DNA from: an uncultured archaeon
Lineage (GTDB): Archaea > Asgardarchaeota > Lokiarchaeia > Sigyniarchaeales > SOKP01
Length of the DNA stretch: 64,000 nt
NCBI GenBank assembly: GCA_964632315.1
Contig: CAZWEM010000003.1
Coordinates: 73,823-137,822, forward strand
Direction: 5' to 3'
Under the pieces are notes generated by a model, which saw only the letters and a list, made by a program, of their open reading frames with translations, did no database searches and was not told the DNA's origin. A program made the translations under genes and the position numbers. Positions 26,732 through 27,504 of this stretch are shown here, piece by piece; positions within the stretch are counted from its first letter, which is position 1; each line of letters opens with the position of its first letter.

Positions 26732-26749
26732 TAAAAAAAAGAAAAAAAA
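26732..26749 (-). terminator. Oligo-T tract downstream of the histone gene
   Basis: A T-run on the minus strand about 30 nt after the stop; archaeal-type terminator candidate. Confidence 0.45.
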
Positions 26750-26779: not shown

Positions 26780-27057
26780 TTATTTATACTTAATCGCCAG
26801 TAGGAGATCGTTTTTGGTAATTTATATAAGAAATCCTTGAAATAAGAAATTCTTTTTACGATTAGCATGCATGGTAAAAGCTCGTGCTTGTTCGGTTAAT
26901 CCAGATGCTGTTTTTTCAAGATGGTCAATTAAAAGATCCACTGCATTTCTGGCTACGATGCTTGCACCTTGCTGCTTCATTAATCTCCTTATTGGCGACC
27001 AGGCAAAACTCCACTCAGAGTCGATTTGACCCTTGATCTATGTTTCTTTTTAGCCAT
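26780..27057 (-). CDS. Archaeal histone (HMf-like fold, 72 aa after removing two putative introns); exons 27057-27038, 27008-26854, 26823-26780
   Basis: GGAGGA RBS before ATG 27057. Spliced product: MAKKKHSFAWSPIRRLMKQQGASIVARNAVDLLIDHLEKTASGLTEQARAFTMHANRKKITKNDLLLAIKYK. Has the alpha1 PIRRLMK and HA.RK.I...D histone motifs. Absent from the ORF track. Confidence 0.88.
26824..26853 (-). other. Putative BHB-type intron 2 (30 nt) in the histone gene
   Basis: AGAAUUUCUUAUUUCAAGGAUUUCUUAUAU. Central helix GUAA/UUAU; bulges AA^A and AU^A; intron stem GAAUUUCUU/AAGGAUUUC; exon stem UAAU/AUUA. Removal deletes the in-frame TAA and restores RKKIT. Confidence 0.8.
27009..27037 (-). other. Putative BHB-type intron 1 (29 nt) in the histone gene
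   Basis: AUCAAGGGUCAAAUCGACUCUGAGUGGAG. Intron stem UCA-A-GGGUC/GACUC-UGA; bulges AG^A and AG^U; central helix ACAU/GUGG (3 pairs plus A.G). Removal fixes the frameshift. Confidence 0.72.
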
Positions 27058-27504
27058 GGTCTATTCCTCCACAATTATAAATTTATAATTCGAGTATTTT
27101 TACTTTTTTTTGGTTTATTAGTAAAGTTTCTTAGATAATATAATATCCGAACGATTATTTAAATGTTTTGGCAATATCAGAAGAACTTGAGGGATTAAAT
27201 GAATAAAAAATCACGACAAAAAGTTAATGTTTTGATTAAAGGATAATCATCCGTGATCATGGAAAGGAAGATCACATGAAGAATTCGAATCCAATTTTTT
27301 AGAATCAAAATAATTCGGATGGTCAAGTTGAGAAAAAGAGGCTTAATATAGGTTTTATTATGGTTTAAAGGGGAATTAAAAAAATTTTTATCAATGCAAC
27401 TCATCATCATTCAATGTCGTGAGATCCATCCCACGATCATAAGGTCTTAGTCATGAGGTAATTAAGTGGGAAAAAATAATCTTATTCTAGTGGTATGATA
27501 TGGG

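What the first reader, a model, noticed from the sequence alone, without database searches (positions are those of the whole stretch)
26780..27057. Asgard histone gene interrupted by two short bulge-helix-bulge-like introns (candidate mRNA splicing system)
Seen in sequence: a GGAGGA RBS and ATG at 27057 open MAKKKH, but the histone body (SFAWSPIRRLMK...HANRKK) lies in another frame, and the final helix (ITKNDLLLAIKYK) lies behind an in-frame TAA. Removing 27037-27009 (29 nt) and 26853-26824 (30 nt) gives an intact 72-aa histone fold with no other lesions. Both inserts fold by hand into BHB-like motifs, and cutting after the 2nd nucleotide of each 3-nt bulge (the EndA rule) gives these frame-restoring junctions. 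Established: the archaeal tRNA-splicing endonuclease EndA cuts BHB motifs and RtcB ligates them; protein-coding introns of this kind are rare in archaea, the classic case being crenarchaeal cbf5. Inference: a chromatin gene in a eukaryote-related lineage needs two splicing events, tying histone supply to the tRNA-splicing machinery. I know of no description of this, and gene callers would miss such genes.
Basis: partly seen in the sequence, partly recalled or inferred. Interest (0 to 1): 0.97.

Follow-up and report, generated by a model that had tools for sequence, protein, structure and literature searches.

The report
Asgard histone gene with two mini-introns
A histone gene of an Asgard (Promethearchaeota) archaeon is split by two 29-30-base inserts shaped like tRNA introns, and comparison with about 60 related genes shows they behave as true introns that must be cut out of the mRNA, a kind of splicing printed so far for only one archaeal protein gene (cbf5); direct RNA proof is still missing.

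Summary
Removing 27037-27009 (29 nt) and 26853-26824 (30 nt) gives a 72-aa histone. It is letter-for-letter identical to annotated histones of insert-less relatives, whose DNA shows the exact predicted junctions.

Insert 1 occurs in 6 of 33 orthologue-bearing genomes of the genus and in 16 metagenome contigs. These alleles form one well-supported clade. Insert 2 is patchy within that clade, with at least five unrelated sequences of 29-35 nt at the same site.

- **Geometry:** every allele fits the bulge-helix-bulge shape (8-11 of 11 pairs). Other protein-restoring cuts score 4-7.
- **Covariation:** stems covary, and an exon synonymous site covaries with the intron.
- **Selection:** across 19 insert-bearing haplotypes, 45 variable codons are synonymous-only and 4 change the residue. 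The gene is therefore functional.
- **Enzymes:** the genome has two EndA subunits and RtcB.

The best reading is EndA/RtcB-spliced mRNA introns (about 0.85). No RNA evidence was obtained, because the single read-laying run failed on a filter. Regulatory coupling of histone supply to splicing is unsupported, since four intact histone paralogues exist. My genome-wide scan gave no statistical excess but did recover leuS and ACS introns. This scan has noted the same phenomenon on other DNA of this genome.

The parts
27065..27070 (-). Shine-Dalgarno GGAGGA, 7 nt before the ATG
   Evidence: The same GTGGAGGAAT motif precedes all five histone genes of the genome.
27038..27057 (-). Exon 1 (20 nt): MAKKKH plus AG of the split Ser codon
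   Evidence: It is identical to the start of insert-less orthologues.
27009..27037 (-). Intron 1 (29 nt, phase 2), a relaxed BHB. The exon supplies H = ACAU (27043-27040) and the bulge AG|A. The inner hairpin is UCA-A-GGGUC[AAAUC]GACUC-UGA. H' = GUGG (27014-27011) and the 3' bulge is AG|U.
   Evidence: It is present in 6 genomes and 16 contigs. Four of its 8 inner-helix pairs show changes on both sides.
26854..27008 (-). Exon 2 (155 nt): the histone-fold body, from the T of the Ser codon through FAWSPIRR...HANRK plus the A of the split Lys codon
   Evidence: PF00808; purifying selection.
26824..26853 (-). Intron 2 (30 nt, phase 1), a near-canonical hBHBh'. h = AAUC/AAUU (one C.A mismatch), H = GUAA (26859-26856)/UUAU (26829-26826), bulges AA|A and AU|A. 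The hairpin is GAA-U-UUCUU[AUUUC]AAGGA-U-UUC. Its last base plus two exon bases form the in-frame TAA.
   Evidence: The same site is occupied in 13 distinct alleles of 29-35 nt.
26780..26823 (-). Exon 3 (44 nt): AA of the Lys codon, then ITKNDLLLAIKYK and the TAA stop
   Evidence: It is conserved at the protein level in all insert-2-bearing alleles.
26997..27061 (-). Long-range exon-exon helix that encloses the start codon and intron 1. GACCA-U-GGC (27061-27053) pairs with GCC-UGGUC (27004-26997).
   Evidence: It appears in the minimum-free-energy fold. It is invariant in 9 distinct alleles. The GACC before the ATG is seen only in the intron-1 clade.
26733..26749 (-). T-rich run after the stop codon (a likely archaeal terminator)
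   Evidence: A T8CT8-like run follows the gene in nearly all orthologues.

Best explanation
The locus is a functional archaeal histone gene (HMf/CBF-NFYB family) carrying two bulge-helix-bulge mini-introns.

Proposed mechanism: in the transcript, the last 6 exon bases before each insert pair with the 3' end of the insert. Together with exon-exon pairing and the insert's own hairpin, this builds helix / 3-nt bulge / 4-bp helix / 3-nt bulge / helix. The two-subunit tRNA-splicing endonuclease EndA cuts after the 2nd base of each bulge. RtcB then joins the exons, which rebuilds the split codons AG|U (Ser) and A|AA (Lys) and removes a frameshift and a stop codon. The result is a 72-aa histone identical to that of intron-less relatives.

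Shown here: the inserts, the exact junctions, the geometry, covariation, selection on the exons, and the presence of the enzymes.

Inferred: cleavage and ligation in the cell.

The introns are probably neutral or selfish passengers tolerated by a broad-specificity EndA, not regulators.
For: 1. The junctions are fixed by homology. Of 33 genus genomes with the orthologue, 27 lack insert 1 and read CATAG|TTTTGC. Alleles without insert 2 read CGTAAAA|AAATTACC or ...AAAAAGATTAC.
2. The spliced product equals protein P0074, which NCBI and JGI annotate as a histone in insert-less genomes. Their DNA is only 78-82% identical to this gene.
3. Insert 1 is found in G000, G016, G004, G005, G053 and G042 and in 16 metagenome contigs. 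These alleles form one clade with 100/100 support.
4. Covariation in insert 1: 96% of cells are paired, against 22-47% when the partners are slid. Four pairs change on both sides, for example UCA/UGA to UUA/UAA and GGGUC/GACUC to UAGCC/GGCUU.
5. Insert 2 has at least 5 unrelated sequence families of 29, 30, 31, 33, 34 and 35 nt at one site. All obey the same cut rule with 8-11 of 11 pairs, while other protein-restoring cuts score 4-7. The exon codon CGU/CGA covaries with the intron's H' strand UUAY/UUUC.
6. Purifying selection: in 19 insert-bearing haplotypes, 45 variable codons are synonymous-only and 4 change the residue. Pairwise, there are 2183 synonymous base differences against 203 non-synonymous codon differences. 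Exon 3, which lies behind insert 2, is included in this count.
7. The enzymes are present. There are two PF01974 genes, one closest to crenarchaeal heterotetramer subunits, and one RtcB. Asgard archaea are reported to have (alpha-beta)2 EndA with the L1 loop that gives broad specificity (PMC5829648).
8. The same genome has a 30-nt insert in leuS and a 32-nt insert in ACS, each with 11/11 BHB pairs. Pfam coordinates are continuous across the leuS insert (position 46 to 48).
Against: - No RNA evidence was obtained. The one read-laying run was rejected by a filter and still counted.
- A scan of JGI metagenome contigs for the spliced G000-type junction found nothing.
- All contigs encoding the spliced protein are insert-less DNA of other lineages.
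- Insert 1 in this genome has an A.G mismatch in the 4-bp helix and only a 3-bp A/U-rich outer helix. RNAfold prefers another register, and its z-scores are not significant.
- My genome-wide scan showed no excess of exact-rule excisions over a control shifted by +/-1 nt.
- The related sequences are kin, so the covariation and selection counts overstate independence.
Confidence: 0.85

Rival explanations
1. Decaying pseudogene. The inserts are inactivating insertions that are never removed, and the four histone paralogues cover the function.
For: Four intact paralogues exist in the genome. Two relatives carry single stop-codon lesions: L044, an insert-less orthologue (G050), has an in-frame TAA, and L067 has a TGA.
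Against: - 19 insert-bearing haplotypes, diverged by up to 19%, show 45 synonymous-only variable codons against 4 with a residue change, and no further frameshift.
- The insert stems keep pairing through compensatory changes.
- Exon 3, behind insert 2, stays intact.
- The protein stays identical to that of insert-less species.
Confidence: 0.03
2. Translational recoding. Ribosomes bypass (hop over) the inserts, or frameshift and read through them, as in phage T4 gene 60 or the yeast mitochondrial byps elements. No RNA cutting is involved.
For: The size range of 29-35 nt and the hairpin resemble bypass elements (my own knowledge). In some alleles insert 2 is in frame without a stop codon (L068 and L069, 33 nt).
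Against: - Both inserts split a codon (AG|U, and A|AA or A|AG). That codon must be rebuilt base by base to give the strictly conserved HSF and RKKIT.
- There are no matching take-off and landing codons.
- Insert sequences evolve by stem-preserving changes, not codon-preserving ones.
- Lengths of 29, 31, 34 and 35 nt would each need a different recoding event, yet all fit one BHB rule.
Confidence: 0.04
3. RNA-level removal by some machinery other than EndA/RtcB. Examples would be an unknown nuclease-ligase pair or a self-cleaving element that recognises the conserved NNNUC hairpin loop.
For: Most histone-gene inserts end their hairpin loop in UC (AAAUC, AUUUC, UAUUC, CUCUC). BHB recognition does not require this feature. 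Insert 1 is a relaxed BHB.
Against: - Rfam finds no ribozyme or other family here.
- 29 nt is too small for group I or group II introns.
- The cut positions follow the EndA rule in all 27 distinct alleles.
- The leuS and ACS inserts lack the UC loop yet have perfect BHB motifs.
Confidence: 0.06
4. Assembly or sequencing artefact in this metagenome-assembled genome.
For: The genome is a MAG of 119 contigs with 8.6% contamination.
Against: The same inserts occur in six species-level genomes and in 16 contigs from several unrelated studies and assemblers. DNA runs from several studies hold up to 71% of the stretch's sampled words.
Confidence: 0.01

Closest known systems
BHB intron in the cbf5 (pseudouridine synthase) pre-mRNA of Crenarchaeota (Watanabe 2002; Yoshinari 2006; Yokobori 2009, PMC2738675)
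   Same: It is a short intron inside an archaeal protein-coding sequence, bounded by a bulge-helix-bulge motif. It occurs in hosts with hetero-oligomeric, broad-specificity EndA, and it is gained and lost among close relatives.
   Different: Here the host is an Asgard (Promethearchaeota) lineage, not a crenarchaeon, and the gene is a histone, not cbf5. There are two introns in a 219-nt coding sequence. One site carries at least five unrelated intron sequences. Splicing of cbf5 was shown by RT-PCR and in vitro cleavage; here it is inferred only.
Archaeal pre-tRNA introns at non-canonical positions, with relaxed BHB motifs (hBH, HBh')
   Same: The predicted enzymes and the cut rule (after the 2nd bulge base) are the same. 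The small size is similar. There is the same tolerance for a mismatched helix, as in intron 1. The hosts are intron-rich: ARAGORN predicts introns in 18 of the 29 tRNA genes it finds here, and Asgard tRNA genes are reported to be heavily interrupted (bioRxiv 10.64898/2026.10.13.758758).
   Different: The substrate here is an mRNA. The exon parts of the motif must therefore also encode protein, and the exon codon CGU/CGA covaries with the intron. In a cell without a nucleus, unspliced copies can be translated into truncated peptides.
Translational bypass elements (phage T4 gene 60; byps of Magnusiomyces mitochondria)
   Same: These are short hairpin-containing inserts (27-55 nt) inside otherwise intact coding sequence, and gene callers misread them.
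   Different: Bypass needs matching take-off and landing codons and cannot rebuild a split codon. Both histone inserts split a codon and fit the BHB geometry instead.
Archaeal histones HMfA/HMfB (PF00808)
   Same: Exon 2 matches PF00808. The spliced product is 72 aa, has the RKK-I-T loop-2 motif, and is identical to annotated Promethearchaeota histones.
   Different: No published archaeal histone gene is reported to be interrupted, in the papers I could search.

Membership tests
BHB (EndA-type) archaeal intron | Two 3-nt bulges on opposite strands, separated by a 4-bp helix and flanked by helices, at the exon-intron boundaries | tested here: met
   Intron 2 has H 4/4, h 3/4 and h' 3/3. Intron 1 has H 3/4 here (4/4 in three of the nine alleles counted), h 3/4 and h' 3/3. 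Intron 1 is a relaxed form, and RNAfold alone prefers another register.
BHB (EndA-type) archaeal intron | Cutting after the 2nd base of each bulge yields the functional mature sequence | tested here: met
   The rule reproduces the junctions of insert-less orthologues for all 27 distinct alleles and for six intron lengths.
BHB (EndA-type) archaeal intron | Helices are maintained by compensatory substitutions | tested here: met
   For intron 1, one search finds 4 pairs with changes on both sides and 96% of cells paired, against 22-47% when slid. For intron 2, one search shows the exon U/A covarying with the intron A/U in helix H.
BHB (EndA-type) archaeal intron | The host encodes a splicing endonuclease able to cut relaxed, non-tRNA BHB motifs, and the ligase RtcB | tested here: met
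   There are two PF01974 genes (207 and 205 aa) and one RtcB. The broad specificity of Asgard (alpha-beta)2 EndA is taken from PMC5829648 and was not assayed here.
BHB (EndA-type) archaeal intron | The intron is absent from the mature RNA (spliced junction reads, circular intron) | not tested
Indirect searches found no spliced cDNA.
Archaeal histone (PF00808, HMf type) | A histone-fold domain of about 65-72 aa that matches the family profile above its cut-off | tested here: met
   Exon 2 alone scores 27.3 bits against a cut-off of 21.4. The spliced protein equals P0074, which carries PF00808.
Translational bypass element (gene 60 type) | Matching take-off and landing codons flank the gap, and no codon is split by the gap | tested here: not met
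   Both gaps split a codon (AG|U; A|AA or A|AG), and no matching codon pair flanks them.

The most novel reading that the evidence does not exclude
The histone gene may be one visible case of a genome-wide layer of tRNA-type mRNA splicing in this Asgard genus. In this reading, many protein-coding genes, some with several introns, carry mobile 29-35-nt BHB mini-introns that are gained, replaced and lost between sister species. Re-invasion of the same exon site would be guided by the 4-6 nt of exon-intron complementarity. That would place intron-interrupted protein genes that depend on post-transcriptional splicing in the closest prokaryotic relatives of eukaryotes.
Probability: 0.5. Interest if true: 0.92.

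Novelty: new member of a known kind. Interest (0 to 1): 0.8.

Why it matters
In the papers I could search, endonuclease-spliced introns inside archaeal coding sequences are documented for a single gene, cbf5 in Crenarchaeota. Here a chromatin gene of an Asgard archaeon needs two such splicing events.

The population data show these introns being gained, swapped and lost, sometimes imprecisely, among sister species, while the protein stays identical. If RNA data confirm it, three consequences follow:
- Asgard genomes are systematically mis-annotated. Gene callers report 52-67-aa fragments here.
- EndA/RtcB act on mRNAs as a routine step.
- Questions about how intron-bearing genes coexist with coupled transcription and translation become testable in the lineage nearest to eukaryotes.

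Tried and rejected
Nothing was learned about splicing.
2. Search for the spliced junction. An exact junction-1 pattern with G000-type flanks found 0 hits in JGI metagenome contigs.
3. Looking for spliced cDNA through exact-protein look-ups. All 20 contigs shown for P0074 and P0103 are insert-less DNA of other lineages, 78-85% identical. Short contigs were not shown, so this is not evidence of absence.
4. Genome-wide census. I combined a BHB geometry filter, an open-frame restoration test and a hairpin filter, and used excisions shifted by +/-1 nt as a control. There was no excess at any threshold.
   - The background comes from chance pairs of open frames and, at first, from 20 high-GC contaminant contigs.
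   - The control is partly contaminated by slipped registers.
   - Of 80 top candidates, only leuS and ACS are evident true positives. Several others (the V-ATPase A, KamA-like and nitronate monooxygenase-like genes) are false, because the supposed 'intron' is really coding sequence.
5. Rfam found no family at this locus.
6. Free-energy folding gave z-scores of -0.55 to -1.9. It is not informative on its own.
7. A covariance-model search for more introns was considered and dropped. The training set's exon flanks are invariant and the model would carry too little information.

Full report
**Observation**

On the minus strand of the window, a GGAGGA site and an ATG at 27057 open MAKKKH. The frame then runs into RSRVKSTLSGVLPGRQ*. 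The histone body FAWSPIRR...HANRK lies in another frame and matches PF00808 above its cut-off. ITKNDLLLAIKYK* follows an in-frame TAA. Removing 27037-27009 (29 nt) and 26853-26824 (30 nt) leaves 219 nt, which encode a 72-aa protein with no other lesion.

The same genome (G000; 4.45 Mb, 119 contigs, 33% GC) has four intact histone paralogues with the same GTGGAGGAAT leader. They read RKK(V/L)T across the second site.

**Homology fixes the junctions**

The organism is a Promethearchaeota (Asgard, Loki-type) MAG from salt-marsh or marine sediment. Its genus holds 42 species-level genomes, and 33 of them have the orthologue at E <= 1e-20. Twenty-seven lack insert 1 and read ATGGCTAAAAAGAAACATAG|TTTTGC.... 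Alleles without insert 2 read CGTAAAA|AAATTACC (G016) or CGTAAAAAGATTAC.

The spliced protein is identical, residue for residue, to P0074. That protein is annotated as a histone in several NCBI and JGI records. The genes encoding it are only 78-82% identical in DNA to the spliced G000 sequence. The protein is thus under extreme purifying selection.

**Distribution**

Insert 1 is present in G000, G016, G004, G005, G053 and G042. It is also in 11 JGI metagenome contigs found with a gapped pattern. Five more contigs were reached through truncated 52-67-aa proteins that gene callers had predicted from such alleles.

On a tree of exons 2 and 3, the insert-1 alleles form one clade with 100/100 support, so a single gain is the simplest reading. 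Within that clade insert 2 is patchy:
- it is absent in six or more alleles;
- it is present as at least five unrelated sequence families of 29, 30, 31, 33, 34 and 35 nt;
- once it is reduced to a 6-nt in-frame footprint (L070, RKNIKITK), which looks like an imprecise genomic loss of an L068-like intron.

**Structure**

The BHB rule places, reading 5' to 3' on each strand, four bases of the central helix, then a 3-nt bulge that is cut after its 2nd base.

For insert 2 of G000 this gives:
- exon helix AAUC/AAUU (one C.A mismatch);
- central helix GUAA/UUAU (4/4);
- bulges AA|A and AU|A;
- a hairpin closed by an AUUUC loop.

For insert 1 it gives:
- exon helix GAA/UUU;
- central helix ACAU/GUGG (an A.G mismatch plus 3 pairs);
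- bulges AG|A and AG|U;
- hairpin UCA-A-GGGUC[AAAUC]GACUC-UGA.

Across all 27 distinct alleles of both inserts, I compared every excision that would restore the conserved protein. The one that obeys the BHB rule scores 8-11 of 11 pairs, and the alternatives score 4-7. Several insert-2 families form a perfect hBHBh' motif, for example AAUC/GAUU with GAAA/UUUC. In three of the nine insert-1 alleles counted the mismatched position is an A-U pair (H' = GUGU).

Covariation for insert 1 (9 distinct sequences): 96% of cells are paired, against 22-47% when the partners are slid. Four of the 8 inner-helix pairs change on both sides. For insert 2, the synonymous exon site CGU/CGA covaries with the intron strand UUAY/UUUC. 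This is hard to explain unless exon and intron pair in RNA.

A random 29-30-nt excision in this genome reaches 9 or more pairs in 0.54% of cases and 10 or more in 0.07%.

There are two caveats. Thermodynamic folding alone does not favour the BHB register of insert 1 and gives unremarkable z-scores. The compared alleles are also kin, so the counts overstate independence.

**The gene is alive**

Among 19 distinct insert-bearing haplotypes (minimum pairwise identity 81%), 45 variable codons carry only synonymous differences and 4 change the residue. Pairwise there are 2183 synonymous base differences against 203 non-synonymous codon differences. This count includes exon 3, which a ribosome could not reach without removal of insert 2. 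This rejects a pseudogene.

Both inserts split a codon (AG|U; A|AA or A|AG). The conserved HSF and RKKIT can therefore only be restored by joining at the nucleotide level. This argues against ribosomal bypass or frameshifting, and no matching take-off and landing codons exist.

Rfam finds nothing here.

**Machinery**

G000 has two EndA-domain genes. The 207-aa gene on C28 is closest to subunits of crenarchaeal splicing endonucleases (3p1z_B, 3ajv_B, 2cv8, 2zyz_B). The 205-aa gene on C8 is closest to 1a79. The genome also has one RtcB. Two different subunits fit the (alpha-beta)2 type. PMC5829648 reports that type for Asgard archaea, together with the L1 loop that confers broad substrate range. 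The same enzyme type was linked to cbf5 pre-mRNA splicing (Yoshinari 2006, cited in PMC5829648).

**Context in the genome**

My own scan combined BHB geometry, restoration of long open frames and a closed hairpin. It showed no excess over a control shifted by +/-1 nt, so it gives no census. It did recover two perfect (11/11) cases:
- a 30-nt insert in leuS (C41:26254-26283), where Pfam coordinates run 5-46 before and 48 onward after the insert;
- a 32-nt insert in acetyl-CoA synthetase (C25:788-819), inside the W-Y-C-T-A-D-I-G-W-I-T-G-H-S-Y motif.

A ubiquitin-E2 (UQ_con) gene 60 kb upstream on the same contig is also fragmented. Earlier notes of this scan list these and further genes of this genome (gyrB, TBP, a chelatase, SCP2). 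They claim an environmental RNA contig lacking the gyrB insert. I did not verify that claim.

**Further detail**

- All insert-1 alleles except the divergent L066 lineage carry GACC before the ATG. It pairs with UGGUC in exon 2, so the start codon sits in a long-range helix that encloses the intron.
- Third-codon-position diversity in the 17 codons next to insert 1 is 0.057, against 0.219 in the rest of exon 2. Insert-less alleles show 0.449 against 0.370. This suggests an RNA-structure constraint on the flanking exon, although a single clade cannot prove it.

**What is missing**

No RNA evidence was obtained. A scan for the spliced junction and two exact-protein look-ups found only insert-less DNA of other lineages.

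**Comparison and novelty**

The closest known case is the cbf5 pre-mRNA intron of Crenarchaeota (PMC2738675). It has the same motif, the same enzyme type and the same gain-and-loss behaviour. The differences here are the lineage (Asgard), the gene (a histone), two introns in 219 nt, and several unrelated introns occupying one site.

Full-text searches found no report of BHB introns in Asgard protein-coding genes. A 2026 preprint treats Asgard tRNA introns only. I class this as a new member of a known kind.

Four intact paralogues exist, and sister species make the identical protein without introns.

**Verdict**

These are real, well-supported mRNA mini-introns, most likely cut by EndA and joined by RtcB (confidence 0.85). 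Direct RNA or biochemical proof is still outstanding.

Noticed in passing
L070:301-477 (JGI Ga0366833_1004027): At the insert-2 site this allele has only 6 extra bases (CGTAAAAATATAAAGATT, RKNIKITK). It looks like an L068-type 33-nt intron whose hairpin was deleted from the DNA, leaving a two-codon footprint in histone loop 2.
   Followed up: partly
L068:224-427 and L069:301-504: The insert-2 variants of 33 nt are in frame and have no stop codon. Gene callers read them through as an 11-residue insertion (P0063, P0068). Their central helix has one mismatch.
   Followed up: partly
window 26957-27007 (first 17 codons of exon 2): Synonymous-site diversity next to intron 1 is about 4-fold lower than in the rest of exon 2 in intron-bearing alleles (0.057 against 0.219). 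It is not lower in intron-less alleles (0.449 against 0.370).
   Followed up: partly
window 27053-27061 with 26997-27004: GACCAUGGC, which contains the start codon, pairs with GCC-UGGUC in exon 2. The GACC before the ATG is found only in the intron-1 clade.
   Followed up: partly
G000 C41:26254-26283 (L075:701-730): leuS carries a 30-nt insert with an in-frame stop and a perfect hBHBh' motif. Pfam PF09334 coordinates are continuous across it (46 to 48).
   Followed up: yes
G000 C25:788-819 (L076): Acetyl-CoA synthetase carries a 32-nt insert with a perfect BHB inside the CTADIGWITGHSY motif. The downstream exon is only about 31 codons long, which suggests further introns.
   Followed up: partly
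G000 C3:12646-13123 (L077:347-824): A ubiquitin-conjugating (UQ_con) gene is split into at least two open frames on the minus strand.
   Followed up: partly
G000, 20 contigs (e.g. C74, C80, C103, C105, C113): About 143 kb of contigs with GC above 40% look like bacterial contamination of the MAG. They produced most of the false positives in the first scan.
   Followed up: no
G000 whole genome: In the ARAGORN output that was parsed (first 400 lines), only 29 tRNA genes appear and 18 have predicted introns. This hints that many tRNA genes are too interrupted to be detected.
   Followed up: no
L044 (G050:C301) and L067: Two relatives carry a single in-frame stop in exon 2 (GAA to TAA; TGG to TGA). 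These could be errors in low-coverage contigs or true pseudogenes.
   Followed up: no
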